Counted from the first letter of the stretch, positions 42,637-57,069 are shown. The stretch is DNA of 64,000 nt from Christensenella sp. (GCA_022784465.1 JALFUR010000004.1:77804-141803), one strand, 5' to 3'. Notes: generated by a model from the letters alone, not told the origin. Made by a program: numbers and translations.

Positions 42637-42686
42637 TTGACTTTATTTAATTGTTATGATATAATTATTCTATGTTATAGAACATA
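42637..42686 (+). promoter_or_regulatory. promoter of XRE gene with palindrome at the predicted +1
   Basis: TTGACT (42637-42642), 17-nt spacer, TATAAT (42660-42665). Inverted repeat TATGTT-ATAG-AACATA at 42671-42686. Confidence 0.55.
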
Positions 42687-42714
42687 TAACAATATTATAT
42701 AACAGGAGGTAATT

Positions 42715-43113
42715 ATGGCAAAGAAAAACTTTAGTGCTCAAAGTGAAGAAAAAATCACTTTTGGTAAACTAATTTCTGACTTGCGGATAAAAAAAGGCTT
42801 ATCTTTACGCAAATTTGCAAATGCCGTAGGGCTACCTCCTTCTAATATGACCTATATGGAAAATGGAGCTTCTATTCCGACGGCAGAAGTTTATACAAAA
42901 ATGTTATGTGTGCTGAATCCTGAACCAGAAGATAAAGTTAAGATGGATAAGTTGTTTTGCCAAGTGCGAAAGATTCCTACCCCGGATGTTTGCCAAGTTA
43001 TATTGAATAATTATGAATTAGGAGAAAGAATAACAAAAATAGGCAATGCAATTTTAACAACAGAACAGTTAAAATTAGTTGAAGAATTATTTGAGTCTTT
43101 TAATAATACATGA
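42715..43113 (+). CDS. XRE-family HTH transcriptional regulator
   Basis: 132 aa. HTH segment LRIKKGLSLRKFANAVGLPPSNMTYMENG. SD AGGAGG. Confidence 0.8.
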   Translation: MAKKNFSAQSEEKITFGKLISDLRIKKGLSLRKFANAVGLPPSNMTYMENGASIPTAEVYTKMLCVLNPEPEDKVKMDKLFCQVRKIPTPDVCQVILNNYELGERITKIGNAILTTEQLKLVEELFESFNNT

Positions 43114-43143
43114 CATATATTGTCATATTATGTTTGATATAAT
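43110..43143 (+). promoter_or_regulatory. palindromic operator candidate plus extended -10 promoter
   Basis: ATGACA-TATAT-TGTCAT (43110-43126), followed by TGaTATAAT (43135-43143), 19 nt before the ATG of the 618-aa gene. Confidence 0.5.
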
Positions 43144-43161
43144 GAGATAGGAGGATTCCAA

Positions 43162-45018
43162 ATGAAAACGTATTATTTAAAGATCAGAGATACATTTATT
43201 ACTGATATTAAAAATAGAGTAAAAAAACATGAATATAGATTAGCTTCGCCTGAAAGGATGCAGGTAAAAGTTGGAGATACCTTTGTTTTGATATCTAATC
43301 AAAACAAGGAAAACTTTGTAAGAACAACGATAAAAGGAATCAAGGTTTATAGTTCGTGGAATGAAGCCTTAAGGGAAAATTGGGAACAAGATTTTAAAAA
43401 CATCTTTTCTTCGTTAGAAGGAACTTTAAAAGAGTGCTATAAATTTTATCCAAAAGCCGAAGTTGACCGCTATGGAATCGTTGTGTTTGAAATTGAACCA
43501 TTATATATAGATTATTCGAAAGCGAGCGTTTTATTAGATACTAATATTTTTATCAAAAGAGAAAGTAGCGATAACGTTTCATTTGAAATCAATAACTTGT
43601 TTAATTGGTTTGACAAGAAAAACGTAAAGAAATATTTGCACAAAAATACCATAGAAGAATTAAAAACTCATAAAGACGAGAAAATAAAAAACACGATGTT
43701 AACGAAAGTTGCTTCGTATGATATTTTGCCTTCTTTTAGTGCAGGAAAAGACGATTATTTTGAATATGTTGTAAGTCAATATTCTCAAGATGTAAATAGT
43801 AAAATTGATAATGCCTTGCTTTTAGAAGTATATAACGACAATGTTGGGATTCTCCTTACTGATGATGGCGCAATCCTAAAAAAGGCAAAGGATTTATTTA
43901 TACGAGATAAGGTTGTTACATCTGCTGAACTATTGGAGTATTTTGAAAAAGCTTATCCTAAAAATATAGAATACAAAATGCTTGCCGTAAAGTTAAAAAG
44001 ATTTGATGAGGTCGATATAAACAGTGCCTTCTTTGATTCTTTAAGAGAAGACTATGAAGGCAAGAAGTTCGATGATTGGTTCAAGAAAAAAGGTAATGAA
44101 AAAGCGTATGTCTTCGAAGATAATGAAAATAATTTAAAAGGTTTTTTGTATCTTAAAATTGAGGACGAAAGCGAAAATTATACTGATATAGAGCCCATCT
44201 TAACTCCAAAAAGAAGATTAAAAGTTGGAACGTTCAAAATTGAACGTACAGGCTTCCGTTTGGGAGAACGTTTCTTAAAAATTATCTTTGAGAACGCTGT
44301 TCAATGGGAAGTTGACGAAGTTTACGTAACGCTTTTTGAAAGCAAGAGACCGGAAGTCACTGCGTTAAAAGGCATTATGGAACAATGGGGTTTTGTAAAA
44401 CACGGATATAAGAAATCAAACGGCGAATTAGTACTTGTAAAAGATATGAAGAATTATAAAGAAACCGAAACGCCAAAGTTTAATTATCCTATTTTAAAGA
44501 AAGATAGAAACCACTACTTCCTTCCTATTTACGCTAAATATCATACGGATTTATTCCCCGATAATATTTTGAAGAACGAAGATATGCATTTGTATGAAGA
44601 TAAACTCGCCCATAGATATGCGATAGAAAAGATATATTTAACAGGGGCATATAATATCAAGGCTAAGGCTGGAGATGTAATTTTAATTTATAGAATGAGC
44701 GATGGTTGGTATAAAAACTATTCATCCGTTGTTACGGGTATGGCGATTGTCCAAGAAGTCGTAAAAACCAAAAACGTTGACGAATGTATAAGTATATGCA
44801 AGGATAAGTCTATTTTTAAAGAAGAAGATATCAGAGCTGTGTATAGTAAATACCCTACCGTATTAAAAATATTAGACTATAAACCCTTTACGCATAAGGT
44901 TACGTTAGATGAATTAAGAAATTGTGGTATTGTAGATAAATATTCAGGACCACGTCCGTTTACTTTTATAACCAAAGAACAATTTGACACTATTTATAAA
45001 TTAGGAATGGAGGAGTAA
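43162..45018 (+). CDS. four-module fusion protein: ASCH-like / PIN-like / GNAT-like / C-terminal PUA-like (EVE/ASCH)
   Basis: 618 aa. Residues 1-114 are ASCH-like (YYLKIRD.F...I....KKHEYR). Residues ~118-265 are PIN-like (LLDTNIF D126, IDNALL D216, LLTDDG D234/235). Residues ~272-428 are GNAT-like (FDSLREDY..FDDWF, ERTGFRLGERFLKIIFENA). Residues ~445-618 are PUA-like (GDVILIYR, VTGMAIVQEV). All calls by eye. Confidence 0.6.
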   Translation: MKTYYLKIRDTFITDIKNRVKKHEYRLASPERMQVKVGDTFVLISNQNKENFVRTTIKGIKVYSSWNEALRENWEQDFKNIFSSLEGTLKECYKFYPKAEVDRYGIVVFEIEPLYIDYSKASVLLDTNIFIKRESSDNVSFEINNLFNWFDKKNVKKYLHKNTIEELKTHKDEKIKNTMLTKVASYDILPSFSAGKDDYFEYVVSQYSQDVNSKIDNALLLEVYNDNVGILLTDDGAILKKAKDLFIRDKVVTSAELLEYFEKAYPKNIEYKMLAVKLKRFDEVDINSAFFDSLREDYEGKKFDDWFKKKGNEKAYVFEDNENNLKGFLYLKIEDESENYTDIEPILTPKRRLKVGTFKIERTGFRLGERFLKIIFENAVQWEVDEVYVTLFESKRPEVTALKGIMEQWGFVKHGYKKSNGELVLVKDMKNYKETETPKFNYPILKKDRNHYFLPIYAKYHTDLFPDNILKNEDMHLYEDKLAHRYAIEKIYLTGAYNIKAKAGDVILIYRMSDGWYKNYSSVVTGMAIVQEVVKTKNVDECISICKDKSIFKEEDIRAVYSKYPTVLKILDYKPFTHKVTLDELRNCGIVDKYSGPRPFTFITKEQFDTIYKLGMEE

Positions 45019-45020
45019 AA

Positions 45021-45392
45021 ATGAAAAAGAAAATTTTAATATCCATCAACCCTGAACACGTGCAAAACATCATTAAGGGAATCAAGAAGTACGAATATAG
45101 AAAAATTGCTGCCAAGCAGGATATTTTTTCCATAATTATATACGAGACAACTCCCGTAAAAAGAATTGTTGCAGAAGCCGAAATCATAGACGTATTAATG
45201 GATTCTCCTGAAGAGTTGTGGAAAATTACAAAGAATGAATCCGGTATTAGCAAAGAGTTCTTCGACGAGTATTTTGAGGGAAGAGATATTGCTTATGCTT
45301 ACAAGTTAGGCAAGATTAAAGTTTATGATGAACCGAAAACATTGCTGGATTACGGGATTAAAGCCGCACCACAATCATTTGTATATGTTTAA
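45021..45392 (+). CDS. stand-alone ASCH-domain protein
   Basis: 123 aa. ILISINPEHVQNIIKGIKKYEYRK...IIIYETTPVKRIVAEAEI pattern typical of ASCH (PUA-like). Starts 2 nt after the upstream stop, with SD GGAGGAG. Confidence 0.7.
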   Translation: MKKKILISINPEHVQNIIKGIKKYEYRKIAAKQDIFSIIIYETTPVKRIVAEAEIIDVLMDSPEELWKITKNESGISKEFFDEYFEGRDIAYAYKLGKIKVYDEPKTLLDYGIKAAPQSFVYV

Positions 45393-45407
45393 TGAGGGAG
45401 TATATTA

Positions 45408-46280
45408 ATGAAATGTATTTTCTGCGGACAAGAGTCATCTTATTCTAAAAGCATAGAACATATAGTTCCCGAATCGTTTGGGAATAAAACAGCATTCTTG
45501 CGAAAAGGCATTGTATGCGATAAGTGCAATAATTATTTTGCTCGGAAAGTAGAACAGCCCTTTCTTGAATCTGAAACGGTACGTGTTCTGCGTCAGGAAT
45601 TGGAACTTGAGAATAAGAGGGGTAAAATAATTAAAGATTATACCTATCCGAGAATTGGGAAAGAATATGTTCAACAAGTCGGCGAAAATACATGTATGAT
45701 ATATACAAAAGAAGATAAAACCGAATCGGATCTTGCGGCAGCAGTTGCCGAATATAACATATATTGTGGGAACACAGATAAACGATTACTTGAAGAAAAT
45801 ATTTTTGTTTCAAGATTATTAGCAAAAATGGCTGTTGAGTATTTTATATACAGATGTGGAGGCGAAGACGATGTTTGTGAGTATGTTGGCTCAGATGAGA
45901 TATTTAAATCTATTCGAGAATATGCCCGCTACGAAAGTAGAAAAATATGGAAATACAATGCACGACGCATATATGCGAGACATACAGCGTATGACGGTGA
46001 TCCATTTACAGCTATAAATTGGGAAGCGGATTTGTTGTTTTTGGGGAATGGTGAGGTATATTTTGTTATTGCGATGTATGGAATAGAATATGCAATTAAT
46101 ATGGGTGGTTCATATATTGATGGATATAAATATTGGTTAGAGAATAATAACTTTCGAAGCCCATTATATTTATCCCCTCAGGAAAAGCAAAAGCTGCTTA
46201 TGGATTATTATAGAAAAATTTCTACAACAACTGAAAAAGTAATGATTTATGATTTTCATAAGAATGGAGAACGACAATGA
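45408..46280 (+). CDS. HNH endonuclease-domain protein with uncharacterised C-terminal domain
   Basis: 290 aa. C3xxC6, SIEH18IVPES, C37DKC40NN form an HNH/zinc-ribbon core. The remaining ~230 aa are unassigned. Confidence 0.7.
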   Translation: MKCIFCGQESSYSKSIEHIVPESFGNKTAFLRKGIVCDKCNNYFARKVEQPFLESETVRVLRQELELENKRGKIIKDYTYPRIGKEYVQQVGENTCMIYTKEDKTESDLAAAVAEYNIYCGNTDKRLLEENIFVSRLLAKMAVEYFIYRCGGEDDVCEYVGSDEIFKSIREYARYESRKIWKYNARRIYARHTAYDGDPFTAINWEADLLFLGNGEVYFVIAMYGIEYAINMGGSYIDGYKYWLENNNFRSPLYLSPQEKQKLLMDYYRKISTTTEKVMIYDFHKNGERQ

Positions 46281-46711
46281 CGAATAAATACAATTACGAA
46301 GTAATGTTTGACGATAAATCAATAGACGTAAGCAAGGAAGTTAGTCTTGTTTGGTCGATAGCAAATTCTTTGCGTGGTGCTTATACTTCCGATAAGTATA
46401 AGGACGTAATTATACCTATGGTTATTATTCGTCGTTTTGAGTGTGCTTTGGCAGAGAAAAAAGATGCAGTTGTCGCTAAATACAAGGCAAACCCTAAGAT
46501 TCCTGCCGCTCTTTTATGTCAAGTATCAGGCTATCCCTTTTATAATACAAGCGAATATACTCTTGCCAAGTTATTAAACGACAGCGATAATATCGCAAGC
46601 AATTTTCAAAGTTATATCGATGGTTTTTCTGCAAACGTGCAAACGATTATAAACAACCTTGATTTTACAAAGCAAATCGAGAAGATGGATAAAAACAAAA
46701 CAGTACTTTAG
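46277..46711 (+). pseudogene. hsdM: type I R-M methylase HsdM, N-terminal domain only (truncated)
   Basis: 144 aa matching the HsdM_N pattern (LWSIANSLRG...YKDVIIPMVIIRRFECAL). It ends before any N6-MTase motif, and no hsdS or hsdR follows. ATGA overlap with the HNH gene. Confidence 0.6.
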
Positions 46712-46769: not shown

Positions 46770-47885
46770 TTATGAGGATATCATAGAGTTCGAAGACGAT
46801 GACGCTGATTTAGAAGAATATGAAGAATAAACTTTCTTCTTCTCTTTAAAACTATCTGTAGCACATTTTTTTATTAGAGAAGTAATTTTATTGTTAATAC
46901 TTGTATCATAATAATAAGTTGCTTTTTGAAAAATATAAGTATTATTTATTTCTCTAAGTAAAGAAGAAGCAGAAAGGTTTTCTTCAAATAGTACTCGTGC
47001 GTAATTTTGATTTCTAAAATATTTAGCATTATCTATTTGGTCGCCACGTGAAGCTTTCTTAGATAGAGGTATATAAAGAACTTTTTTATTTAAAGCTGCT
47101 AGTTCAAAACATGATGTTGCACCTGCGCGTGAAACAATCATGCTAGCAGCTTTTATATAATTATGAATTTCTAAAGTAAAATCTATTGAGACATAATTTT
47201 TCATAGAATAATTTTTGCCAGACTTTCCAGTTATATGAATAACAAAAAACGTTTTACATAATTGTTCTAGTATCTGGTAAACCGTATTATTTATAATTTC
47301 TGAGCCAAGAGAGCCACCCATAATTAATAATATTGGTTTATTTTTAGGAATTTTATGTTTTGAGTAAACAGATTCTGCATTAGCGTTAAATAAGCTTGAT
47401 CTTAGTGGCATTCCAATATTTACATAGTTTTGTCTTTTTAGTTTTGTGCAAGGGAATGATGTAATTACTTTTTTAGCAAATAATGATGTAATCTTATTTG
47501 TTATTCCTAATGTACAATCTGATTCATGACAAATAACAGGTATATTTAGCAAAAAAGCGGCGATAACAACAGGGAGAGAAATATATCCACCTTTTGAAAA
47601 TACGATGTCAATATTATCTTTTTTTAGTTGTTTTAAAGATTTAATAATACATAGAGGAAGTTTAAAGGGTATAGATAGATTTTTAGATAATGATTTTCGC
47701 GAAAATTTGACTGCCTCAATGTTTCTAAAAACAACGCTTTTATATGGTTTTACAAGTGTAAATTCCATTCCATTACTATTTCCATAATAATAGATATTTT
47801 TAAATTCTTTTTTTAAATCATTTATTAAAGAAATATTTGGAATTATATGACCAGCTGTACCACCACCTGTTAATGCTAAATTCAT
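46770..47885 (-). CDS. murG: MurG-like GT28 glycosyltransferase
   Basis: From ATG 47885 (SD AGGAGG): LTGGGTAGHIIPN and SRAGATSCFELAA...IPL....GDQIDNA motifs. The ORF-track N-terminal extension would run into the tRNA promoter region. Ser-rich low-complexity C-terminal tail. Confidence 0.7.
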   Translation of the reverse strand: MNLALTGGGTAGHIIPNISLINDLKKEFKNIYYYGNSNGMEFTLVKPYKSVVFRNIEAVKFSRKSLSKNLSIPFKLPLCIIKSLKQLKKDNIDIVFSKGGYISLPVVIAAFLLNIPVICHESDCTLGITNKITSLFAKKVITSFPCTKLKRQNYVNIGMPLRSSLFNANAESVYSKHKIPKNKPILLIMGGSLGSEIINNTVYQILEQLCKTFFVIHITGKSGKNYSMKNYVSIDFTLEIHNYIKAASMIVSRAGATSCFELAALNKKVLYIPLSKKASRGDQIDNAKYFRNQNYARVLFEENLSASSLLREINNTYIFQKATYYYDTSINNKITSLIKKCATDSFKEKKKVYSSYSSKSASSSSNSMISS

Positions 47886-48001
47886 TGTGACCTCCTGTAT
47901 GAATAAAATATATGATATTATAAAGGTTGAAAATATTGCTTTTTTGTCGCATAAAGTATAGTTTTTTATTTTGAAATAATTTGGTGTATAATAAAACAAA
48001 T

Positions 48002-48078
48002 GCTCGTGTAGTTCAGTGGATCAGAACGTTTGTTTCCGGAACAAGAAGTCGGCGGTTCGAGTCCGTCCACGAGCACCA
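48002..48078 (+). tRNA. tRNA-Arg (anticodon CCG), CCA encoded
   Basis: Hand-folded cloverleaf: acceptor GCTCGTG/CACGAGC, D-arm GTTC/GAAC, anticodon stem TTTGT/ACAAG with loop TTCCGGA, T-arm GGCGG-TTCGAGT-CCGTC, 3' ACCA. Confidence 0.9.
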
Positions 48079-48271
48079 TATAGAAAGCATGGGTTCGATA
48101 CAGCAAAATATATTATTTTAAAATTTTTTGTATATTTTTATATTGAAATATTTTAATAATTATATATAAACTTTATATTACTCGGATCTGTACAAGTATA
48201 TGTCTTATACTACGAGGGGGCGTTTTTGAGTAACTTTTTATTGTTAATGCATTTGATTTAGTTAATCTGTT

Positions 48272-49534
48272 TTATATTAAATTCATTACAATTTTTAATT
48301 CAGATTCATCAATATCTAAACCTAAGATTTCTTTATACATTAATTTATAAACACCAAATTTTAATGCGCTTGTTATATCAAATAGCCAATTATAGTCCAT
48401 ATCTTTTTTATATAAAATTTTAGTTTTATTATTTTTAACTTCAAATTTGTTATTTGGTATATAATATCCGTCATGTACATAATAATTTCTTAAACTATTG
48501 ATTTCGTTTGCAAAGTATATGTTTGATAAATCTGATTCGTTAAATAAGTCTTTGTTGTTTTCAATAAAGTATTCTATTCTTCGGAAATTGCTTGCTTTCT
48601 TTTTTTCTTTCATGGATAATTTTTCTCCAATATACATATCAATGTATCTAAAATAAAATAAAAACTTATCTTCTAGTGATGTTGGGATTTTAAATTCAAG
48701 TGGTAAAAATTTGTTTTTATCTTGAGTTACTCTATAATTTACATCAAGATACATTTTTTCTATAAATTCAAAAAACGAATTTTTTATAATGCTGTAATGT
48801 ATTTTATTGTAGTGTTTTATATCTCCTAAATGTTTGTGGACTAATTTTAGTTCTTTATTGTTACTTGTGGTTATATATGTTTCATAAGATTTTAAAGCTA
48901 TTGGAAAATATGCATTTAAATAAATGTGCATTTCGTGAATATATTCAAGAACTTCTTCATATGTGATTTCATTAATTAAATATAATTTTATATAATTTTC
49001 AGTGTTTATATTAATACTTTGATGTTGATCTTTATTACTAACTGAACAACTTCCGCTCATAACTATTTTAGAAATATTGTTTTTGTTTATGTTTATTTCG
49101 TTTTTGTTAATTTCTGTTCTTTTTATTTTGTATTGGAAATAGTCTTTTGTTTCTTCGATATTTAAACAAGGATTTTTAAAGTATTTGGCTAGCATTGGAT
49201 GATAAAAAGTTATAGCTTTAATTTTTATGTTTTTATTAAATTCTGAAGTGTTTTCTATGTTGCTTGTTGAAAAATAAAAACTAGTTTTATAACTTTCGTA
49301 TGAATCTAAACTATAAGTACTTCCTGTGTTGTAAAATATAGGTGAGTATGCAAAAAAGTTGTTTTTATAATCTTTTACAATAATTGATTTATATATTATC
49401 TCGTTACAATATTTTATTTCACTATCGAAATTAGAATAATCATGTATATCAATACTCAAATTATTTCTTTCTTCTACATAATCTCCTTTGTAACAATCGT
49501 TATCATTTTCTATCATTACTTCACATAACGCCAT
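48272..49534 (-). CDS. HEPN-motif protein, ApeA-like abortive-infection candidate
   Basis: 420 aa, very AT-rich codons. Rx4H motif R349-NYYV-H354 (nt 48473-48490) in a helical C-terminal region, with a large uncharacterised N-terminal domain. The ApeA resemblance is architectural and from memory. Confidence 0.5.
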   Translation of the reverse strand: MALCEVMIENDNDCYKGDYVEERNNLSIDIHDYSNFDSEIKYCNEIIYKSIIVKDYKNNFFAYSPIFYNTGSTYSLDSYESYKTSFYFSTSNIENTSEFNKNIKIKAITFYHPMLAKYFKNPCLNIEETKDYFQYKIKRTEINKNEININKNNISKIVMSGSCSVSNKDQHQSININTENYIKLYLINEITYEEVLEYIHEMHIYLNAYFPIALKSYETYITTSNNKELKLVHKHLGDIKHYNKIHYSIIKNSFFEFIEKMYLDVNYRVTQDKNKFLPLEFKIPTSLEDKFLFYFRYIDMYIGEKLSMKEKKKASNFRRIEYFIENNKDLFNESDLSNIYFANEINSLRNYYVHDGYYIPNNKFEVKNNKTKILYKKDMDYNWLFDITSALKFGVYKLMYKEILGLDIDESELKIVMNLI

Positions 49535-49717
49535 TTCAAATTCCTCTCAAACTGTATTGAATTTTTCCATAAATATTTTTTCTGGTTAAATATTCTAATT
49601 TAAATAGTATATTTCGTAGTGTTATATAGTCAATATTAAATATTATAGGATATAAATAATTCTAGATGTTTTTGGTTTATAGTTTTTTAGATTATTTTAG
49701 TGTGTTATAATTTTTAT

Positions 49718-50482
49718 ATGAAAATTTCAAGAAAATATATTTTTTTAATAATAATTGCAATGATTGGTTTCTTGATGTCCATTTGTATTTTTTTTGATTG
49801 CAATAAAGTATTTCAATGGATAGGGAATTTAGGAGTAGGTGTCTTTTCATCTACACTTGTAGTAATTTTTCTAGAAAGAATAAATGATAAAAATAATTTT
49901 AAGATATTAGAAAATCAAAGGGTATATATTTTTTCCAGTTTTAAAAGAGATTTAATTTATACTCTTAAAACAGAGTTAGAATGTACTAGTGAATATTTAT
50001 TGCTTAATGAAGAAATTGAAAAAGAAGAAGTAAAAATTAATATTAAAATAGCAGTTGATTATTTAATTAATAATTTTGACACAGTTGAAAAATATTATTT
50101 TTCTAGGAGAAGCCCTTTGAGAATTAATCATGATTTTATTAATAAATCAAAAAAAGAATCTTATTTATTATGTGATATTCCTGTGCATATGTATAAGATT
50201 TTATATAAGGATATTTCGTTTCTCGAAGAGCATCTAGTTGATTATTTTTTAATGGGAGTTATAAATCAAAATCAGTATGAGGTTTTGTTGGGGGTGAATG
50301 GTTTGATTGATGAAGTTATTAGATATTCAGAATTAGGTATAAATGAGCATATAAATGTAATTGAGTTTGATATGAAAAGAATGTTGTTAAAAGAGATTAA
50401 AAGTATTTGTGAGTTGTTCAATCTTAATGATGATATAGTTTGTAAAATAGCGAAAGAAAAGAGTTGTATTAAGAAAAATTAA
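49718..50482 (+). CDS. 2-TM membrane protein with cytoplasmic helical domain, unknown function
   Basis: 254 aa from ATG 49718. TGtTATAAT (49703-49711) ends 6 nt before the ATG, so the mRNA may be leaderless. Two N-terminal TM helices. Confidence 0.5.
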   Translation: MKISRKYIFLIIIAMIGFLMSICIFFDCNKVFQWIGNLGVGVFSSTLVVIFLERINDKNNFKILENQRVYIFSSFKRDLIYTLKTELECTSEYLLLNEEIEKEEVKINIKIAVDYLINNFDTVEKYYFSRRSPLRINHDFINKSKKESYLLCDIPVHMYKILYKDISFLEEHLVDYFLMGVINQNQYEVLLGVNGLIDEVIRYSELGINEHINVIEFDMKRMLLKEIKSICELFNLNDDIVCKIAKEKSCIKKN

Positions 50483-50517
50483 TATACGAATATTTTGTAA
50501 ATTTTTAGGTAATATAT

Positions 50518-50997
50518 ATGAAATTCGAAGATGTATTAAAGTATTTAAGAGAATATATTGGATTAAATCAATCTGAGTTGGCAAGAGAATTAGATTTAAG
50601 ACAATCTCATATATCAATGTGGGAAAGAGGAGAAAGAGAACCTTCTATTTCGAATCTTATAGATATGTCAAAATATTTTAATTGTTCAATTGATTTTTTA
50701 GTTGGACAAGAAAGTGCAGATAAAGCTGTTTCTTTCTTGGATTATATTAAATCTAATGTGGGAAGAACCTTTAATACAAAAACTGGAAAACCTTATACAT
50801 ATGAAATTAGAAAGAATGGTTTAAGTATTAATGATGGTAGAAGAATACGTTATGTTCCATTTGATAGTTTAATTAAGGTTGTGTCATATAAATATGTTGA
50901 TAGACCAAAAGATTTGGTAAATTTAACTGGTAGTATTTATGTTTACGGATTAATTGTAAATTATTACCATGAAGTTTGTGGTATATATTTTTTTTAA
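50518..50997 (+). CDS. XRE-type HTH protein with ~95-aa C-terminal extension (possible R-M controller)
   Basis: 159 aa. HTH GLNQSELARELDLRQSHISMWERGEREPS. Located upstream of the two methylase genes. Confidence 0.7.
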   Translation: MKFEDVLKYLREYIGLNQSELARELDLRQSHISMWERGEREPSISNLIDMSKYFNCSIDFLVGQESADKAVSFLDYIKSNVGRTFNTKTGKPYTYEIRKNGLSINDGRRIRYVPFDSLIKVVSYKYVDRPKDLVNLTGSIYVYGLIVNYYHEVCGIYFF

Positions 50998-51082
50998 TAA
51001 ATAAAAATTATTAATATAATATAATATAATTTATGTTAAGATAATATATGGTATTTTTATTTGTTTCTAATGGAGGGAATAG

Positions 51083-52195
51083 ATGATTAGATTGGCCACT
51101 GTTTTTAGTGGGATTGGTGCTATAGAATCAGCTTTAGAATATTTAAATGAAGATTATAAAATTGTCTTTGCTTGTGATAATGGAGAAAGAGAATTAAAAA
51201 AATCTTATGATGAAATAGATGATTTAGTTGAAGGAAAGTCAGAAGAAGAAGTCCAAAATATAGTCAATAGGTTATATAGAGAAACAAAAAAAGAAAATTA
51301 TGTTAAGCAATCTTATTTTGCTAATTATAAAATTAATGATAATCAATGGTTTGAAGACATAAAATATTTGAATGGTAATCTTTTTGAAAATGAAATAGAC
51401 TTATTTGTTGGAGGAAGTCCTTGTCAGTCTTTTTCGGTTAATGGTAAAAGAGCTGGTTTAAAAGATATTCGAGGAACTCTTTTTTACGAATATTGTAGAA
51501 TTATCAATGAAAGTAAGCCAAAGGTTTTTATTTATGAAAATGTTAGAGGTATGCTTAATCATGATAAGGGTAATACTTGGAAAGTTGTAAAAATGATTTT
51601 TAATCTACTTGATTATGATATCTATATTCGTCAAAATGATGGAAAAGAAGATCCTATTTTGAATTCAAAAGATTATGGAATTCCTCAAAATAGAGAAAGA
51701 TTATATGTTGTAGGTTTTAGAAAAAATTTAAATATTCGTGGCTTTGAATTTCCTATAGCTGAAGAATTAAGTACTAGAGTAAATAATTACTTAGAGTCTA
51801 AAGTGAATGCTCAGTATTATTTAAAGCAAAAGGGATTTGAATTTGTAACGTCAAATCCTTCAAGGGCAAGAGTAGGAAATGACATAATTGGATGTCAAAA
51901 AGCAAATCAACAGTTTAATTGGAATGGCGATTTTATTTTTGAGCCTTTAGAGTCAATTATAGATCGACATGATGTTTTAGAAAGAGCATATGTTGGAAAT
52001 TGGAAAGGACAAGTAGGTGTATGCAGAAAGTTTACTCCAAGAGAGTGTTTGCGACTAATGGGCTTTAAAGATTCGTTTAAAATAATACATAAAGATGAAA
52101 TCATGTATAGACAAGCGGGTAATTCAATTGTCGTTAATGTTCTTATGAGATTAGTTGAATCAATCAAAAAAACTGGAGTGTGGGATAATGATTAA
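51083..52195 (+). CDS. DNA (cytosine-5)-methyltransferase, copy 1
   Basis: Motif I FSGIGA, IV GGSPCQSFS, VI ENVRGM, VIII QNRERLYVVG, IX RKFTPRECLRLMGF, X QAGNSIVV. Confidence 0.92.
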   Translation: MIRLATVFSGIGAIESALEYLNEDYKIVFACDNGERELKKSYDEIDDLVEGKSEEEVQNIVNRLYRETKKENYVKQSYFANYKINDNQWFEDIKYLNGNLFENEIDLFVGGSPCQSFSVNGKRAGLKDIRGTLFYEYCRIINESKPKVFIYENVRGMLNHDKGNTWKVVKMIFNLLDYDIYIRQNDGKEDPILNSKDYGIPQNRERLYVVGFRKNLNIRGFEFPIAEELSTRVNNYLESKVNAQYYLKQKGFEFVTSNPSRARVGNDIIGCQKANQQFNWNGDFIFEPLESIIDRHDVLERAYVGNWKGQVGVCRKFTPRECLRLMGFKDSFKIIHKDEIMYRQAGNSIVVNVLMRLVESIKKTGVWDND

Positions 52196-53342
52196 ATTAG
52201 CAACTTTATTTAGTGGTATAGGCGCTATAGAACAATCATTAATTAGGCTTCATCAAGATTATGAAATTGTTTTTGCTTGTGATAATGGCGAAATAGAAGT
52301 AGATATTGATATAGAAAAAGCAAAGAAAGAAATATCTCATTTACATAATAAAAAAGAAAAGAAAAAATATGTTGATAATTTATATTCTATTTCGAGAAAG
52401 ACAAATTTTGTAAAAAGAAGTTATCTAGCTAATTATCAAATCAATGAAGATGATTTTCATCTTGATGTTAGATTACTCGATGGTACAGATTATGCTGGAG
52501 AAGTTGACCTTTTAGTTGGAGGTAGTCCTTGTCAATCTTTTTCTTCTATTGGGTTTCAAGGAGGATTAGAAGATGCTAGAGGCACACTGTTTTATGATTA
52601 TGCTCGCATAATTCAAGAAGTTCAACCTAAAGTTTTTATTTATGAGAATGTAAGAGGGTTGACTACTCATGATGAAGGTAGGACTTGGGCAAAAATAAAA
52701 GATATTTTTATGAATACTCTTCATTATAAAATTACTGAACCTAGAGTTTTAAACGCATCAGACTTTGGAATTCCCCAAACTAGAAGAAGATTGTTTGTTG
52801 TTGGTATAAGAGATGATTTAAATGTTATGGATTTTGAGTATCCAAAGGGAATTGGCACGGAAAATCTACCATTTTATTTGCAAGATTTATTAGAAGATAA
52901 TTGCGCGTTTGATCCAATTAATTTTAATTATTATTATGATAAAAATGGAAATATTACAATTAATTCTATTCCAGGGCATCCTGATGAAAGATTTATTTTA
53001 ACACCAAAAGTTAGAGACTATGTTTTAAAAAGTGGTACAAAAAATTTTAGAACTTCAATAGAAACTGATAAGCCAATAGCAAGAACTTTATTAAAAACAA
53101 TGACTCAACATCATAGAGCAGGAGTTGATAATTATATTACCGTTGGTTTTGATTCTGAAGGCAAGAGAATTATTAGGTCTTTGACTGATAGAGAATGTAT
53201 GAGACTTATGGGATATCCTGATTCATTTAAGATTGTTGTATCTCCAATGCAAGCTTTTAAACAAGCAGGTAATTCAATCGTAGTTGATGTTATGATGGCA
53301 ATTGTTAGAAATGTAATAGGAACAGGCGTATTTGATATATAG
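52188..53342 (+). CDS. DNA (cytosine-5)-methyltransferase, copy 2
   Basis: Motif I FSGIGA, IV GGSPCQSFS, VI ENVRGL, VIII QTRRRLFVVG, IX RSLTDRECMRLMGY, X QAGNSIVV. ATG 52188 overlaps the stop of copy 1. Confidence 0.92.
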   Translation: MIKLATLFSGIGAIEQSLIRLHQDYEIVFACDNGEIEVDIDIEKAKKEISHLHNKKEKKKYVDNLYSISRKTNFVKRSYLANYQINEDDFHLDVRLLDGTDYAGEVDLLVGGSPCQSFSSIGFQGGLEDARGTLFYDYARIIQEVQPKVFIYENVRGLTTHDEGRTWAKIKDIFMNTLHYKITEPRVLNASDFGIPQTRRRLFVVGIRDDLNVMDFEYPKGIGTENLPFYLQDLLEDNCAFDPINFNYYYDKNGNITINSIPGHPDERFILTPKVRDYVLKSGTKNFRTSIETDKPIARTLLKTMTQHHRAGVDNYITVGFDSEGKRIIRSLTDRECMRLMGYPDSFKIVVSPMQAFKQAGNSIVVDVMMAIVRNVIGTGVFDI

Positions 53343-53355
53343 GAGGAAAAATAAT

Positions 53356-54321
53356 ATGAGAGTAACTAGAATTGATGCTTTTGATATGAATTTTGAAGAA
53401 TGTTCAGTAGCTAAAAAATATAAATTAATTGGCACTAGTGGAATGGGTGAAAAACGTATTTATGTTGGACATGATGAAATGATGCTTGATGAATTTTTTG
53501 ATCTTAACAACATTGAATGTTTTATGTTGTTAAAAAAAGATTTACAAAAATATTTGTATGAAGCAAAAGATGAGTTTTATCATCCTACTCAGGATTATAA
53601 AAATGATTTATCTGATTATTATGAGGAAAACGTTATAAATACTAATAATATTGCTAACGATGTTATTAAATTACATTTTGTAAAAAAATATGATAGTCAA
53701 AATAGATATTATCTTAATTTTAAAGATGATGGATATTCTTCTTCAAATTGGGATTTTTTAAGAAATATTGCTTTGCCTAGAGTTACTAAACTAAATTTTG
53801 TCAAGGTTAGAAATGTTGATAATAATAAGTTGTATATCTATATCAAACCTTCATTCTATATTGAAGAAAAAGTTGTTGAAGAAAAACTAATTGTTGAAGA
53901 TTTATTGGCTGGTAATAGACAGGCGGTAGAGAATCGTAGAAAAGGACAGGTACAATGGAGAATGAAACTTTTAGATATTATGCCTGGATGTGTTATCACA
54001 AAAGTTACAGAAGATCGAATTTTAGAAGCATGTCATATTAAGCCTCATAGTATTTCGTTATCAGAGGGAAAAATTGAAGAACTTACTGATGTTAATAATG
54101 GACTAATTATGACTCCTACCTTCCATAAATTATTCGATATGGGGTTTATTTCTTTTAATGATAATGGAACGATTTTGATTTCTCCATTTTTATCAAATAT
54201 GAATAAACAAAGATTAAGTCTAAAAGATGATGCACAATATCGCATTCCAAAAAATTGTGCAGAATATTTAGCTTATCATCGTAGTAATGTATACAATCAA
54301 ATTCCTGATCTACAAATTTAA
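53356..54321 (+). CDS. HNH-type restriction endonuclease candidate
   Basis: 321 aa from ATG 53356 (SD AGGAGG). C-terminal EACHIKPHS...NGLIMTPTFHKLFDMGFISF is the HNH_2-type nuclease motif. Immediately downstream of the methylases. Confidence 0.7.
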   Translation: MRVTRIDAFDMNFEECSVAKKYKLIGTSGMGEKRIYVGHDEMMLDEFFDLNNIECFMLLKKDLQKYLYEAKDEFYHPTQDYKNDLSDYYEENVINTNNIANDVIKLHFVKKYDSQNRYYLNFKDDGYSSSNWDFLRNIALPRVTKLNFVKVRNVDNNKLYIYIKPSFYIEEKVVEEKLIVEDLLAGNRQAVENRRKGQVQWRMKLLDIMPGCVITKVTEDRILEACHIKPHSISLSEGKIEELTDVNNGLIMTPTFHKLFDMGFISFNDNGTILISPFLSNMNKQRLSLKDDAQYRIPKNCAEYLAYHRSNVYNQIPDLQI

Positions 54322-54525
54322 AAGTGTTTAAGATTTCTTAATTTTAGTATATCTTTTTATCGGGCATGTTTATTTGTTTATTACTTGAGAAGTTTATGTA
54401 AAAAAAAGAATGATTTTTTTTGAAAAGAAAAAAGATTGCTCAATAACAAAAGATAATATTTCAGGTTGTGTAATAGTTTCTAGAATAAGTGAAAAGCTGT
54501 CAGAGATTAGAGATGTTGAATATTT

Positions 54526-54556
54526 TAGCCGACTCAATTAAGAGCCGGCTTTTTTA
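54526..54556 (+). terminator. possible rho-independent terminator
   Basis: agccg / cggct 5-bp stem with a long loop, then TTTTTT. Weak stem. Confidence 0.4.
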
Positions 54557-54592
54557 ATCTTACAATCAAATAATCCTTCATTGTCATATTTT

Positions 54593-54904
54593 TTATCCAA
54601 ATATATATATCATCTTAAGACGAATATTGTTATCAATATCCAAAGTCATAAATGGAATCAATATATTTCTATGGTTATATAAATAAATATTAAATTGTTT
54701 ATCTATAATATATAACTTAATAGCACAATATCCGTCTGTATAATATAAGCAAAAAGGAGCTGAAGATTCATTACAAAAGTATTCAAATTCAGTTCCATTT
54801 TTGCCATTACAATAATAAATATTTGTATCTTTAATTAATTCTTTGTCTAAGTTTTCTTTATTTAGTAAATCATTAAAGATTTCTTTAATTATTGTTTCAA
54901 TCAT
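54593..54904 (-). CDS. hypothetical protein (103 aa)
   Basis: Last gene of a three-gene minus-strand set. No recognisable domain. Confidence 0.45.
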   Translation of the reverse strand: MIETIIKEIFNDLLNKENLDKELIKDTNIYYCNGKNGTEFEYFCNESSAPFCLYYTDGYCAIKLYIIDKQFNIYLYNHRNILIPFMTLDIDNNIRLKMIYIFG

Positions 54905-54911
54905 ATTTCAC

Positions 54912-55238
54912 CTATACAGTTATATTCTTATTAGGTACATAACAAGCACCTTCATTCTCTATCGCCCTATAAGTAATACCATCAATAATTTTATGTATAG
55001 AGTTAGGCATACCATCTCCAAGAGCTTTTAATGTAATATCTCCTTTTGCAAGTAGATCATTCATATTAAGATTGATGTCTATTGTATCCTCTATTTTGTT
55101 AGCCTCAATAATATTGCAGCCTTTAGATTTAACATAAGCAGAGAATTTCCATAAAGCATCTACTTTGTTATAGCAATCAATTACAAAAGATAAATTGTAT
55201 TGTGGAGCATATCCACAAATTCTATAATTGTTTTCCAT
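54912..55238 (-). CDS. hypothetical protein (108 aa)
   Basis: Middle gene of the set, separated by 15-nt and 7-nt gaps. No recognisable domain. Confidence 0.45.
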   Translation of the reverse strand: MENNYRICGYAPQYNLSFVIDCYNKVDALWKFSAYVKSKGCNIIEANKIEDTIDINLNMNDLLAKGDITLKALGDGMPNSIHKIIDGITYRAIENEGACYVPNKNITV

Positions 55239-55253
55239 AGTTTATATCTCCTT

Positions 55254-55877
55254 TTAAGCAGTTTTTAGTATTTTTCTTAATTTTTTATTGGCATAAGGTA
55301 GCCAAGTATTATTTACATAATCTAGAACATTTTCATTCGGTCTAGAATCTCTATCTCCATAACATTGAATAACTCTTTTATCAGATAGAGAATATTCTAA
55401 AGTCACATAAGGTAAATTTAAATTATTATTTAGTCTTACAAAGAATATTAAAGATTGTTCATCAACGAATTTCTTATCGTAATTCATTTTGCCTACGCAA
55501 TGGTGTAGAGAATCTCCTTCAAATATTAAATCATCTTTAGATTTGGCAATTATTGTAGAGTATTCATTGTCTTTAAATTCTAAAGAGATGTATTTGTTAG
55601 ATATCTTGTTGAATATCTTGTTAAATTCTTTGTATTTTTCTCTATTTAATTCTCTTTGTTTTGCTTCTTTTTCAGCGATTCTAATATCGTGCCAATAACG
55701 AGAATTGTGAGGATAAACATTCTTATCTTGAGTCATGTCTAAGCCCAAGAAGATGCAAGCTTCAAAATAGTCTTTGTATGAAAATATTTGTGTTTCTTGT
55801 TTTTTAAGATAATTAGCAAACTTAACAAAGTTCTTGTTAGTAATAATATCTTTAATATAAAAATTAGCTCTTTTCAA
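55254..55877 (-). CDS. PcfJ-like domain protein (conjugative-element associated)
   Basis: 207 aa. LHHCVGKMNYDKK....QSLIFFVR......PYVTLEY......VIQCYG..DS.PN resembles the PcfJ-like family pattern (from memory). Confidence 0.55.
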   Translation of the reverse strand: MKRANFYIKDIITNKNFVKFANYLKKQETQIFSYKDYFEACIFLGLDMTQDKNVYPHNSRYWHDIRIAEKEAKQRELNREKYKEFNKIFNKISNKYISLEFKDNEYSTIIAKSKDDLIFEGDSLHHCVGKMNYDKKFVDEQSLIFFVRLNNNLNLPYVTLEYSLSDKRVIQCYGDRDSRPNENVLDYVNNTWLPYANKKLRKILKTA

Positions 55878-55977
55878 ACTTATTGATATTTGTTGAGAAC
55901 CTATGTCTTAATTGAATATGTTTTAATAATATCGAAAAATGTAATGTTATATTTTATTTAATCCTTATAATAAAGAG

Positions 55978-56009
55978 TAGACATATGTAGATAGTATGTC
56001 TATTTTTTT
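55978..56009 (+). terminator. orphan rho-independent terminator (no plus-strand gene upstream)
   Basis: tagacata / tatgtcta perfect 8-bp stem, 9-nt loop, TTTTTTT. Confidence 0.7.
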
Positions 56010-56080: not shown

Positions 56081-56533
56081 ATGAAAAAACGTATTGTTTT
56101 TATTCTTTTTGTTGCAATTATTATGTGTTTTAGTCTTTTTGCTGTGTCATGTAAAAAAAATGACAATATTGAAGAAGAAAAAAACACATTTATTCTTGTT
56201 GAAGAGAAGGGAGAAGAAGTCATTGAAAAAGTAATTGATTTATCAAACATCGATTTAAAAAATGGGTTAATAACAGTTTTGGATAATCAAGAAATAGAAT
56301 ATGTTATTGATTCAAATGAATTTACGAAGTTTGATCAGATGGAAATGTATATTGAAGGCGATGATATTTATATTATTGAAGTATACACTTCTAACGAAAC
56401 AGATCAAGATGATTCAGAATATGCGAGAACTGTTACATATAAAGGAGTTGAACTTGTAAATATAAAATGTTCTCCTTACGAAATGAATATTGCTAACGGT
56501 ACTATTGTTTTAGTTAAGTTAGAAAAAATCTAA
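56081..56533 (+). CDS. small lipoprotein
   Basis: 150 aa. Signal peptide with lipobox FAVSC. SD AGGAGAGG. Confidence 0.65.
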   Translation: MKKRIVFILFVAIIMCFSLFAVSCKKNDNIEEEKNTFILVEEKGEEVIEKVIDLSNIDLKNGLITVLDNQEIEYVIDSNEFTKFDQMEMYIEGDDIYIIEVYTSNETDQDDSEYARTVTYKGVELVNIKCSPYEMNIANGTIVLVKLEKI

Positions 56534-56670
56534 AAGAATATAATTATAAAATATCGAAAACATTAAAATGCGATGTATCGAGATGAATCAACTCAATACT
56601 TTGACTTTTTTTGCGTAAAAATATAATATTATTAATTGAAAAACAAATAACAAACTTTTTATTAATTAAC

Positions 56671-57069
56671 ATGAAAAGAAACGAAGTAGTAGCTGCAATA
56701 ATTGAATATAAAGGAAAGATTCTTTGTATGCAAAGAAAAGAAGGGAAATACGAATATGTTTCTAAAAAGTACGAGTTTCCAGGTGGAAAAATTGAACTAG
56801 GAGAAACAAGAACCCAAGCTTTGATACGAGAAATAAAAGAAGAACTGGATATTGATATATATGTTTCAGAGAATAATTATTATATGAGTATAAATCATGT
56901 ATATCCTGATTTTGAAATAACAATGCACAGTTTTTATGTAAAAGTAGAAAGTCCATATTTTGTAATGAAAGAGCATTTAGACTATAAATGGTTAGATATA
57001 AAAGATTTAAAGTCTTTAGATTGGGCGCCAGCTGATGAGCCTATAATAGAAAAATTAATGTCGGTTTAG
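56671..57069 (+). CDS. NUDIX hydrolase (MutT-like)
   Basis: Nudix box GGKIELGETRTQALIREIKEELDI. ATG 56671 is preferred because the TTG at 56611 lies within a TTGACT..TATAAT promoter-like region. Confidence 0.8.
   Translation: MKRNEVVAAIIEYKGKILCMQRKEGKYEYVSKKYEFPGGKIELGETRTQALIREIKEELDIDIYVSENNYYMSINHVYPDFEITMHSFYVKVESPYFVMKEHLDYKWLDIKDLKSLDWAPADEPIIEKLMSV

What the first reader, a model, noticed from the sequence alone, without database searches (positions are those of the whole stretch)
48079..56009. AT-rich ~7.9-kb island directly after tRNA-Arg(CCG), with no integrase and an orphan terminator at its far end
From the first base after the tRNA CCA the sequence turns extremely AT-rich. One hand-counted 60-nt sample at 48301 has 13 G+C, against 22 in a sample from the left operon at 44281 (anecdotal only). 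The region encodes defence-type and conjugative-element-type genes: HEPN, R-M, PcfJ-like. At 55978-56009 there is a perfect 8-bp-stem terminator with T7 on the plus strand, although the three genes before it are all on the minus strand. Inference: this may be the original tRNA-Arg terminator, displaced by insertion of the island. I found no integrase and no convincing direct repeat of the tRNA 3' end, so the element looks decayed or was acquired by another route.
Basis: partly seen in the sequence, partly recalled or inferred. Interest (0 to 1): 0.55.

Follow-up and report, generated by a model that had tools for sequence, protein, structure and literature searches.

The report
Strain-variable defence-gene hotspot beside tRNA-Arg
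The 7.9 kb after tRNA-Arg is one of at least five interchangeable sets of mostly anti-phage-type genes that strains of an uncultured gut Clostridia species carry at the same chromosomal slot, a known kind of feature.

Summary
tRNA-Arg(CCG) lies at 48002-48078. The next 7.9 kb has 25.5% G+C, against 31.0% for the rest of the window.

**Gene content**
- A 420-aa protein with an invariant Rx4H (HEPN-like) motif.
- A membrane protein.
- An HTH regulator, two C5-methylases and an HNH nuclease.
- A phage-like PcfJ module on the minus strand.
- No integrase and no repeat of the tRNA.

**Comparison with other strains**
- Contigs from other strains of the same species are 96-98% identical in the core.
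- They lose all similarity 0-5 nt after the tRNA's CCA.
- Between these two points the strains carry unrelated cargo: a Hachiman system, a Z1/HATPase set, large helicases or a Bsp6I-type restriction-modification system.
- Cargo length ranges from 6.5 to about 23 kb. No empty site was seen.

**Verdict**
- This is a chromosomal defence hotspot of the "replacement island" type.
- Exchange is probably by homologous recombination in the conserved flanks. That step is inferred.
- The "displaced tRNA terminator" idea fits the junctions but is unproven.
- It is a new member of a known kind, of modest interest.

The parts
46770..47888 (-). murG, part of the conserved left anchor. The block 46693-48083 is 97-98% identical in all strains.
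   Evidence: Pfam Glyco_transf_28 and Glyco_tran_28_C. blastn limits.
48002..48078 (+). tRNA-Arg(CCG), the last conserved element of the left flank. It is identical in 16 contigs of other strains.
48079..48295 (.). AT-rich leader. It is shared at about 97% only with the L069-71 strain type. In all other strain types homology ends at 48080-48083.
48272..49534 (-). 420-aa protein of an uncharacterised family (NCBI MSH40_00840). It has a beta-rich N-terminal domain and a helical C-terminal domain with invariant NEINSLRNHYVHEGYY (R349-x4-H354). It is a candidate HEPN-type defence nuclease.
   Evidence: A homologue lies between a ResIII/N6_N4_Mtase gene set and UvrD plus DarT/DarG. The L069 type keeps only the gene's last 24 nt.
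49718..50482 (+). Predicted membrane protein of unknown function (ORF from 49700). It is shared with the L069 type at 59% amino-acid identity.
50518..50997 (+). HTH_3 regulator (159 aa), upstream of the R-M genes. It is 92% identical to the regulator in the L069/L079 type, which precedes a different R-M system.
51083..52195 (+). C5 cytosine DNA methyltransferase 1.
   Evidence: Pfam DNA_methylase E = 9e-68. TIGR00675 dcm.
52188..53342 (+). C5 cytosine DNA methyltransferase 2 (ATG start at 52188), a diverged tandem paralogue of methyltransferase 1.
   Evidence: repeats D1-D6.
53356..54321 (+). HNH_2 endonuclease, the probable restriction enzyme (ORF from 53332; called as 321 aa in L062).
   Evidence: Pfam HNH_2 E = 3e-13. 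PADLOC HNH and REase_II.
54527..54556 (+). G+C-rich intrinsic terminator of the R-M operon.
   Evidence: -11.3 kcal/mol, T6 tail.
54593..55877 (-). Three-gene minus-strand module: PcfJ-like (55254-55877), a 108-aa protein (54912-55238) and a 103-aa protein (54593-54904). The PcfJ and 108-aa genes are adjacent in the same order in gut phage contig MT835493.
55972..56009 (+). Intrinsic terminator: a 15-pair hairpin including the A and T tracts, plus a T7 tail. It is the first element of the conserved right flank in all strain types.
56081..56533 (+). 150-aa lipoprotein gene, the conserved right anchor. It is 98-99% identical in the five contigs L073-L077, which share one cargo end, and a 91% allele in the L079 type.
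56534..56663 (.). Second, small variable spot. The L079-L082 strains carry IS110 plus an SLFN-type helicase here (3.85 kb).
56671..57069 (+). NUDIX hydrolase, a core gene. In the sister species it lies 180 bp from murG.
42345..46692 (+). Second strain-variable defence segment, on the other side of murG: an HTH protein, PDC-M11A/B, an HNH_5 nuclease and a truncated type I methylase.

Best explanation
Window 48084-55971 is one allele of a chromosomal defence-gene hotspot (a "replacement island") in an uncultured, low-G+C, Christensenella-like gut Clostridia species.

**The slot**
- On the left it is bounded by the conserved murG-tRNA-Arg(CCG) block.
- On the right it is bounded by a conserved terminator-lipoprotein-NUDIX block.
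- Different strains carry unrelated gene sets between these two fixed points. Most of these sets are of anti-phage type.

**This strain's cargo**
- A type II restriction-modification unit: an HTH regulator, two m5C methylases, an HNH nuclease and its own terminator.
- A stand-alone 420-aa candidate HEPN nuclease.
- A membrane protein.
- A phage-derived PcfJ module.

**How it most likely works (inferred, not shown)**
- Cargo turns over by homologous recombination of incoming DNA from other strains. The recombination uses the conserved flanks and modules shared between alleles. No site-specific integrase of the island itself is involved.
- The terminator at 55972-56009 stops transcription from whatever cargo lies upstream and insulates the lipoprotein gene. 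It may originally have been the terminator of the tRNA.
For: **Shown**
1. Core DNA is 96-99% identical between the window and contigs of other strains. Similarity ends at 48080-48083 in L056-59, L065-67 and L072, and resumes at exactly 55972 in L073-77.
2. The cargos differ between strains:
   - UvrD/RQC helicase + HTH + HATPase_c_3 + Z1 + DUF4420.
   - MqsA-type HTH + 1110 aa + DEAD/MZB 1712 aa + NERD ... HTH + two Dcm + DUF6339, about 22.9 kb on one scaffold.
   - Membrane protein + HTH + Bsp6I R-M + DUF2971, about 6.5 kb.
   - Hachiman HamA plus helicase.
   - A fifth junction type in L088.
3. No integrase or recombinase domain is listed for any cargo seen, apart from an IS110 outside the main slot. 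There is no tRNA repeat.
4. The alleles are mosaic. The window and the L069 type share the 217-bp leader and the membrane-protein and HTH genes (79-83% nt) but have different R-M genes. The L069 type retains the last 24 nt of the 420-aa gene, a deletion scar.
5. The lipoprotein flank of the L079 type is 82-93% identical, while the core beyond it is 97%. This is what co-transfer of flank and cargo would leave.
6. The terminator hairpin is kept in three strain types. Its loop varies, and the stem changes are G-U compatible.
7. G+C is lower than the core while GC3 is the same, which fits donors from the same gene pool.
8. The right junction of the window is confirmed by two independent assemblies at 100% identity (L061, L062).

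**Context from the literature**
- Core defence hotspots with fixed flanks that include a tRNA or tmRNA gene are described, and flank-mediated homologous recombination is proposed for them (PMC10250203).
- At E. coli hotspot #37, 68% of instances have no detectable mobile element (PMC10121019).
Against: - No recombination event was observed directly. Flank identity shows no clear gradient towards the slot.
- How each new cargo first arrived at precisely this position is unexplained.
- Cargo in the L056 and L086 types was seen only in part, and about 3.8 kb of the L065/L073 island was not read. An integrase could lie in those unseen parts.
- The defence roles rest on domain hits and neighbourhood only.
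- Several cargo genes have no known function: the 420-aa protein, the membrane protein, and the 103-aa and 108-aa proteins.
- All comparison sequences are metagenome contigs, and many of them end at the junctions.
Confidence: 0.78

Rival explanations
1. This is a single tRNA-targeting integrative element (genomic island, IME or satellite). It inserted at the 3' end of tRNA-Arg and has since lost its integrase and att repeats.
For: - The left limit lies within 0-5 nt of the tRNA 3' end.
- Composition is atypical.
- A phage/plasmid-type PcfJ module is present, and its PcfJ and 108-aa genes are syntenic with a gut phage contig.
- tRNA genes are classic integration sites (PMC10121019, PMC10250203).
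Against: - No integrase was found in this cargo or in the visible parts of four others.
- No tRNA-derived repeat was found above chance.
- The tRNA is identical in all cargo types, so it carries no element-specific 3' half.
- Five different cargos end at the same two points, which one decayed insertion does not explain.
- GC3 is the same as in the core.
Confidence: 0.15
2. The segment is a remnant of a prophage or a phage satellite.
For: - PcfJ-like proteins match PHROG families and 170 phage records.
- The best match is human-gut phage contig MT835493 (48% aa), which has the 108-aa homologue next to it.
Against: - No capsid, terminase, replication or integrase genes are present.
- At the DNA level only the methylase genes find anything in the phage or plasmid collections.
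- Neither the tRNA 3' end nor the 420-aa family is found in IMG/VR.
- The phage-like part is only about 1.3 kb of the 7.9 kb.
Confidence: 0.05
3. The apparent island is an assembly or binning artefact, or ordinary low-G+C core DNA.
For: - The window comes from a metagenome-assembled genome.
- The neighbouring core genes murG and those at 56-59 kb are also low in G+C.
Against: - Two independent assemblies from other runs reproduce 53290-59557 and 55796-62880 at 100% identity, across the right junction.
- The L069-71 contigs reproduce tRNA-48295.
- Other strains carry other genes here, so this is not core DNA.
Confidence: 0.02

Closest known systems
Core defence hotspots cDHS1 and cDHS2 of Pseudomonas aeruginosa (Johnson et al. 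2023, PMC10250203)
   Same: - Fixed core-gene flanks that include a tRNA or tmRNA gene.
- Nearly always occupied.
- Very different defence cargos and sizes between strains.
- Lower G+C than the genome.
- No single type of mobile element.
- Flank-mediated homologous recombination is proposed as the means of transfer.
   Different: - The cargos here are much smaller (6.5-23 kb, against a median of 26 kb and up to 224 kb).
- The host is a Firmicutes-type gut anaerobe known only from metagenomes.
- The alleles look like replacements with shared modules rather than additive stacks.
- A second hotspot lies only 1.4 kb away, on the other side of murG and the tRNA.
E. coli defence-island hotspots, especially #37 and the 18 tRNA-linked hotspots (Hochhauser et al. 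2023, PMC10121019)
   Same: - Hotspots defined by flanking core genes.
- tRNA-adjacent.
- A large share of instances have no recognisable mobile element.
   Different: - Many E. coli instances still carry integrases, prophages or P4-like satellites.
- None was seen here in the parts that could be read.
Classical tRNA-linked genomic islands, prophages and ICEs integrated by tyrosine recombinases (Williams 2002, cited in PMC10121019 and PMC10250203)
   Same: - Position at the 3' side of a tRNA gene.
- Atypical composition.
- Variable between strains.
   Different: - No integrase.
- No duplicated tRNA 3' segment.
- No excision or transfer genes.
Type II restriction-modification operons with a controller protein and two m5C methylases
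   Same: - Gene order is HTH, then two Dcm-family methylases, then a nuclease, then a terminator.
- The nuclease has an HNH_2 domain and matches PADLOC HNH and REase_II models.
   Different: - The HTH protein is 159 aa, about twice the length I recall for typical controller proteins (from memory, not tested here).
- It is 92% identical to the HTH protein in front of an unrelated Bsp6I-type system in another strain.
- Its controller role is therefore doubtful. Recognition site and activity are unknown.
Stand-alone HEPN defence or abortive-infection nucleases (for example AbiV, PDB 9bj5; HEPN toxin, PDB 7ae6)
   Same: - An invariant Rx4H motif in a helical C-terminal domain.
- A homologue lies in a defence-gene neighbourhood.
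- A HEPN toxin is the top, though non-significant, fold match of the C-terminal domain.
   Different: - No HEPN family model matches.
- Fold matches are not significant (E = 0.75, TM 0.33-0.39).
- The 250-aa beta-rich N-terminal domain has no structural match.

Membership tests
Chromosomal defence hotspot / replacement island | The same pair of conserved core flanks in all strains of the species. | tested here: met
   The left flank 46693-48083 and the right flank from 55972 are 96-98% identical in 16 and 5 or more contigs respectively.
Chromosomal defence hotspot / replacement island | Unrelated cargos between the flanks in different strains. | tested here: met
   At least five gene sets show no DNA similarity to one another or to the window.
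Chromosomal defence hotspot / replacement island | Cargo enriched in anti-phage systems. | tested here: met
   Domain-level hits only: R-M, HamA plus helicase, Z1/HATPase_c_3/DUF4420, DEAD/MZB and NERD helicases, Bsp6I R-M and SLFN helicase. No function was tested.
Chromosomal defence hotspot / replacement island | Exchange by homologous recombination in the flanks. | tested here: inconclusive
   A divergent lipoprotein allele (82-93%) is linked to one cargo type, and the alleles share mosaic modules. There is no gradient in flank identity and no phylogenetic test.
Integrase-mediated tRNA-linked genomic island, prophage or IME | Located at the 3' end of a tRNA gene. | tested here: met
   Homology ends 0-5 nt after the CCA.
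Integrase-mediated tRNA-linked genomic island, prophage or IME | A tyrosine or serine recombinase gene in the element. | tested here: not met
   No such domain was found in the ten window proteins with Pfam, PADLOC, PHROGs or NCBIfam, nor in the precomputed Pfam hits of the other cargos.
Integrase-mediated tRNA-linked genomic island, prophage or IME | A direct repeat of the tRNA 3' segment at the far end (attR). | tested here: not met
   There is no match with up to 3 mismatches. The best local alignment is below the shuffle mean.
Type II restriction-modification system | Methyltransferase(s) and a nuclease in one operon. | tested here: met
   Two DNA_methylase genes and one HNH_2 gene are co-oriented with overlapping or abutting reading frames and followed by a terminator.
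Type II restriction-modification system | Sequence-specific methylation and cleavage. | not testable with these tools
   This needs methylome data or enzyme assays.
HEPN nuclease superfamily (the 420-aa protein) | A conserved Rx4-6H motif. | tested here: met
   R349 and H354 are invariant in 17 homologues that are 32-77% identical.
HEPN nuclease superfamily (the 420-aa protein) | A match to a HEPN family profile, or a significant match to the HEPN fold. | tested here: inconclusive
   No Pfam, PADLOC, NCBIfam or PDB-sequence hit was found. With the C-terminal domain model (pLDDT 87), the top Foldseek hit is HEPN toxin 7ae6_B, but at E = 0.75 and TM 0.33-0.39; Csm6 and AbiV are also listed.
Intrinsic (Rho-independent) terminator at 55972-56009 | A stable hairpin followed by a U tract. 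| tested here: met
   dG -14.1 kcal/mol, z = -6.3, T7 tail. It is kept in three strain types.
   No empty-site genome was found. The sister species lacks both the tRNA and the terminator. This needs Term-seq or an empty allele.
PcfJ-like protein (Pfam PF14284) | Profile match above the curated cut-off. | tested here: met
   93.4 bits against a cut-off of 25.

The most novel reading that the evidence does not exclude
Two things remain possible.
1. The 420-aa family (17 known members, no annotated domain, confident model, no structural neighbour for its N-terminal 250 residues) could be a new single-gene HEPN-type anti-phage nuclease with a new sensor domain.
2. The murG-tRNA-Arg block could be a dedicated, integrase-free double landing pad. 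Cargo would be inserted inside the tRNA's own transcription unit, between the tRNA and its terminator. Read-through from the tRNA promoter could then contribute to cargo expression or, in this strain, to antisense control of the HEPN-like gene.
Probability: 0.15. Interest if true: 0.55.

Novelty: new member of a known kind. Interest (0 to 1): 0.35.

Why it matters
- Defence hotspots have been mapped mainly in Proteobacteria such as E. coli, Pseudomonas, Vibrio and Acinetobacter.
- This locus shows the same organisation in an uncultured, very low-G+C gut Clostridia lineage: fixed flanks, a tRNA anchor, interchangeable cargo and no recognisable mobility genes.
- The junctions here are unusually sharp, running from the tRNA's CCA to the first base of a terminator.
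- The slot can serve as a "guilt-by-location" source of candidate defence genes for this clade, such as the 420-aa HEPN-like family, the membrane-protein and HTH pair, and the 580-aa and DUF2971 genes.
- It is also a compact case for testing whether hotspot turnover needs any site-specific machinery.
- In itself it is not surprising.

Tried and rejected
1. **Empty site not found.**
   - The GTDB representative genomes hold no close relative; the best MurG match is 50% identical.
   - The exact tRNA is absent from the JGI metagenomes, and its 25-nt 3' end is absent from IMG/VR.
   - About 25 same-species contigs, fetched through exact-protein look-ups, all had an occupied slot or ended at a junction.
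2. **"AAAGAG" lead.** The motif at about 115 nt after the tRNA in the L058 and L065 types looked like the start of the terminator. It is not followed by the hairpin, so it is a chance match.
3. **"GGTTCGA" lead.** This motif 14 nt after the tRNA looked like a T-arm remnant. It is not supported by alignment scores compared with shuffles.
4. **Inverted repeat I10.** Arms 48148-48171 and 56010-56033 are 24 nt long and 88% complementary. I rejected them as terminal repeats: they are AT-only, one of 167 such pairs, and the right arm lies in the conserved flank.
5. **Consensus scan.** The promoter/terminator scan found no more sites than shuffles give. It missed both real terminators because of its loop and bulge limits.
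6. **Small RNA at the terminator.** Rfam finds nothing there, so there is no evidence that the terminator belongs to a known small RNA.
7. **Fold search.** Searching the full 420-aa model against the PDB gave nothing significant.
8. **Whole-island DNA search.** Searches against the phage and plasmid collections matched only the methylase genes.

Full report
**1. What is in the window**

ARAGORN finds one tRNA in the 64 kb: tRNA-Arg(CCG) at 48002-48078 on the plus strand. Rfam confirms it. To its left lies murG, on the minus strand at 46770-47888.

To its right the genes are as follows:
- A 420-aa ORF on the minus strand (48272-49534).
- A predicted membrane protein (49718-50482).
- An HTH_3 protein (50518-50997).
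- Two C5 cytosine methylases (51083-52195 and 52188-53342).
- An HNH_2 nuclease (53356-54321).
- A G+C-rich terminator (54527-54556).
- Three minus-strand genes: 103 aa, 108 aa and PcfJ-like (54593-55877).
- A 150-aa lipoprotein gene (56081-56533).
- A NUDIX hydrolase, a 512-aa surface protein, a flavodoxin-like protein, a SLOG protein and a PUA-methyltransferase.

**2.

- The hand counts are exact (13 and 22 G+C).
- The segment has 25.5% G+C, against 31.0 +/- 0.8% for windows of equal size elsewhere. Its tetranucleotide usage is far outside the core range.
- The drop is not a sharp step at the tRNA. murG is already at 27% and the right flank to 59 kb is at 26.8%.
- Third-codon-position G+C is the same as in core genes. 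The donors therefore probably belong to the same AT-rich gene pool.
- The hairpin is real. From 55972 it forms 15 pairs (AAAGAGUAGACAUAU / GUAUGUCUAUUUUUU) with dG -14.1 kcal/mol and z = -6.3.
- The R-M operon has its own terminator and the three genes before the hairpin are on the minus strand. The hairpin therefore has no plus-strand gene to serve in this strain.
- No integrase domain was found.
- No tRNA-derived repeat was found above chance.

**3. Where the window comes from**

- The 420-aa protein is 100% identical to NCBI "hypothetical protein MSH40_00840 [Christensenella sp.]" on a 431,536-bp MAG contig.
- MurG and NUDIX proteins in the same 90%-identity clusters as the window's carry accessions MCI7401215 and MCI7401226 on a contig of that same length. 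The window's exact MurG sequence was not on record.
- The nearest GTDB representative has a MurG only 50% identical. The species is therefore poorly sampled among reference genomes.
- Metagenome assemblies do hold many strains of it.

**4. Comparison with other strains (the decisive evidence)**

I used exact-protein look-ups of MurG and NUDIX variants to fetch about 35 contigs.

*Junctions*
- Core regions are 96-99% identical to the window.
- On the left, similarity stops at 48080-48083 in L056-59, L065-67 and L072. That is 2-5 nt after the CCA. In L088 it stops right at the CCA.
- The tRNA itself is identical in all 16 contigs.
- On the right, five contigs with a different cargo (L073-77) regain similarity at exactly 55972, the first base of the extended hairpin.

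*Cargo between these two points*
- L056/57: UvrD/RQC helicase, HTH, HATPase_c_3, Z1 and DUF4420; more than 9.8 kb.
- L065 plus L073, on one scaffold: about 22.9 kb. It holds an MqsA-type HTH, a 1110-aa protein, a 1712-aa DEAD/MZB helicase, a NERD helicase, then HTH, two Dcm genes, four more genes and DUF6339.
- L069 plus L079: about 6.5 kb. It holds the membrane protein, the HTH protein, a Bsp6I-type R-M system, a 580-aa protein and DUF2971.
- L086/87: Hachiman HamA plus helicase.
- L088: yet another sequence, starting with a -20.6 kcal/mol hairpin.

No contig showed an empty slot. No cargo shows an integrase or recombinase domain. The only mobility gene is an IS110 in a separate small variable spot between the lipoprotein gene and NUDIX.

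**5. The alleles are mosaic**

- The window and the L069 type share the 217-bp leader after the tRNA at about 97%. They also share the membrane-protein and HTH genes at 79-83% nucleotide identity; the HTH proteins are 92% identical.
- Similarity ends 31 nt before the HTH stop codon. The R-M genes that follow are unrelated (28% amino-acid identity between methylases).
- The L069 type lacks the 420-aa gene but keeps its last 24 nt. This looks like a deletion scar.
- In the L079 type the lipoprotein gene and terminator are only 82-93% identical to the window, whereas the core beyond them is about 97%.
- These patterns are what recombination between alleles, and co-transfer of flank with cargo, would leave.

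**6. The terminator**

- It is present at the start of the conserved right flank in three strain types. The loop varies. In the L079 type two stem changes keep pairing as G-U.
- In the L073 and L079 types it follows plus-strand cargo genes, so there it is not an orphan.
- Joining the two conserved flanks gives ...CCA-TAT-AAAGAGTAGACATA..., an ordinary tRNA-plus-terminator arrangement.
- It remains unproven for three reasons:
  - No empty allele was found.
  - L088 has a different terminator directly after the tRNA.
  - The sister species L060 (MurG 70-72% identical) has murG and NUDIX 180 bp apart with no tRNA, no terminator and no lipoprotein gene.
- That sister species instead carries a PLD/DEAD helicase (DUF3427) gene one gene further on.

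**7. The cargo of this strain**

*Restriction-modification unit*
- It is well supported at domain level.
- Two m5C methylases with one nuclease suggest an asymmetric recognition site. This is an inference.

*The HTH protein*
- It resembles controller proteins only in its first 70 residues.
- It also precedes an unrelated R-M system in another strain, so its role is uncertain.

*The 420-aa protein*
- It belongs to a family of only 17 sequences, none with a Pfam domain.
- The motif NEINSLRNHYVHEGYY, containing R349-x4-H354, is invariant.
- AlphaFold gives a confident model (pLDDT 90) with a beta-rich N-terminal domain and a helical C-terminal domain.
- The full model has no significant PDB neighbour.
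- The C-terminal domain alone has a HEPN toxin as its top hit, but not significantly: E = 0.75, with Csm6 and AbiV also listed.
- A 47% identical homologue lies between a ResIII/N6_N4_Mtase gene set and UvrD plus DarT/DarG.
- It is therefore a reasonable but unproven HEPN-type defence candidate.

*The PcfJ module*
- PcfJ-like proteins occur in many Firmicute phages and plasmids.
- The best match is a human-gut phage contig in which the 108-aa homologue is adjacent in the same order.
- This 1.3-kb module is probably phage-derived.

**8. Interpretation**

- The locus fits the published picture of core defence hotspots:
  - fixed flanks that include a tRNA gene;
  - a slot that is always occupied;
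  - cargo that differs between strains;
  - lower G+C than the genome;
  - often no recognisable mobility genes;
  - flank-mediated homologous recombination proposed as the route of transfer.
- I file it as a new member of that kind, in a lineage where such hotspots have not been described to my knowledge.
- Membership as a classical integrase-mediated tRNA island fails on two tested defining features: the integrase and the att repeat.
- What is shown: the fixed junctions, the diversity of cargo, the mosaicism and the conserved terminator.
- What is inferred: the recombination mechanism, the defence functions and the ancestral role of the terminator.

**9. Things seen in passing**

- The other side of murG (42345-46692) is a second strain-variable segment.
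  - In this strain it holds an HTH protein, the PADLOC candidate system PDC-M11 (A, E = 1.6e-153; B, E = 8e-40), an HNH_5 nuclease and the first 134 residues of a type I methylase.
  - Other strains carry DUF4234 with or without a TnpB or a GIY-YIG gene.
- The conserved 1.39-kb murG-tRNA block therefore sits between two defence hotspots.

Noticed in passing
window 42345-46692: A second strain-variable segment lies on the other side of murG.
- In this strain it holds an HTH protein (42715-43113), PDC-M11A (43162-45018, also ASCH and PIN-like), PDC-M11B (45021-45392) and an HNH_5 nuclease (45408-46280).
- None of these genes is found in the other strains.
- Those strains have DUF4234 with or without an IS605 TnpB or a GIY-YIG gene.
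- G+C here is slightly above the core (32%).
   Followed up: partly
window 46277-46711: This ORF is only the N-terminal domain of a type I R-M methylase (HsdM_N; it matches positions 4-134 of a 661-position PADLOC model). It ends 18 nt past the point (46693) where similarity to other strains resumes. It is probably a gene truncated by a replacement event.
   Followed up: partly
L060 8200-8900 and 5370-8276: In the sister species (MurG 70-72% identical), murG and NUDIX are 180 bp apart with no tRNA, terminator or lipoprotein gene. A 968-aa PLD/DEAD helicase (DUF3427) gene is inserted between NUDIX and the 512-aa gene. The tRNA-Arg gene may itself have arrived at, or been lost from, this place.
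   Followed up: partly
window 56534-56663; L079 6144-9993: A small second variable spot lies between the lipoprotein gene and NUDIX. Several strains carry an IS110 transposase and a 663-aa SLFN-group-3-type helicase there.
   Followed up: no
L058, L086, L087, L089 and L065-67, first ~230 nt after the tRNA: A non-coding leader of about 230 nt is shared by strains that then carry different cargo: Hachiman in one group, an MqsA-HTH plus large helicases in the other. Its role is unknown; it may be a promoter or regulatory region, or a recombination module.
   Followed up: no
L088, first 62 nt after the tRNA: One strain type has a strong hairpin with a T-rich tail 1-2 nt after the CCA (-20.6 kcal/mol). 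It is unrelated to the terminator at 55972. The contig ends 93 nt after the tRNA, so the cargo is unknown.
   Followed up: partly
window 50518-50997 versus L079 272-730: The 159-aa HTH protein is 92% identical between two strains, whereas the adjacent membrane protein is 59% identical and the downstream R-M systems are unrelated. The breakpoint lies 31 nt before the HTH stop codon.
   Followed up: partly
L063, L064, L084 (start at window 56216-56276): Several contigs of other strains begin inside the lipoprotein gene. This is probably an assembly break where lipoprotein alleles (98% and 91% types) diverge within mixed samples.
   Followed up: no
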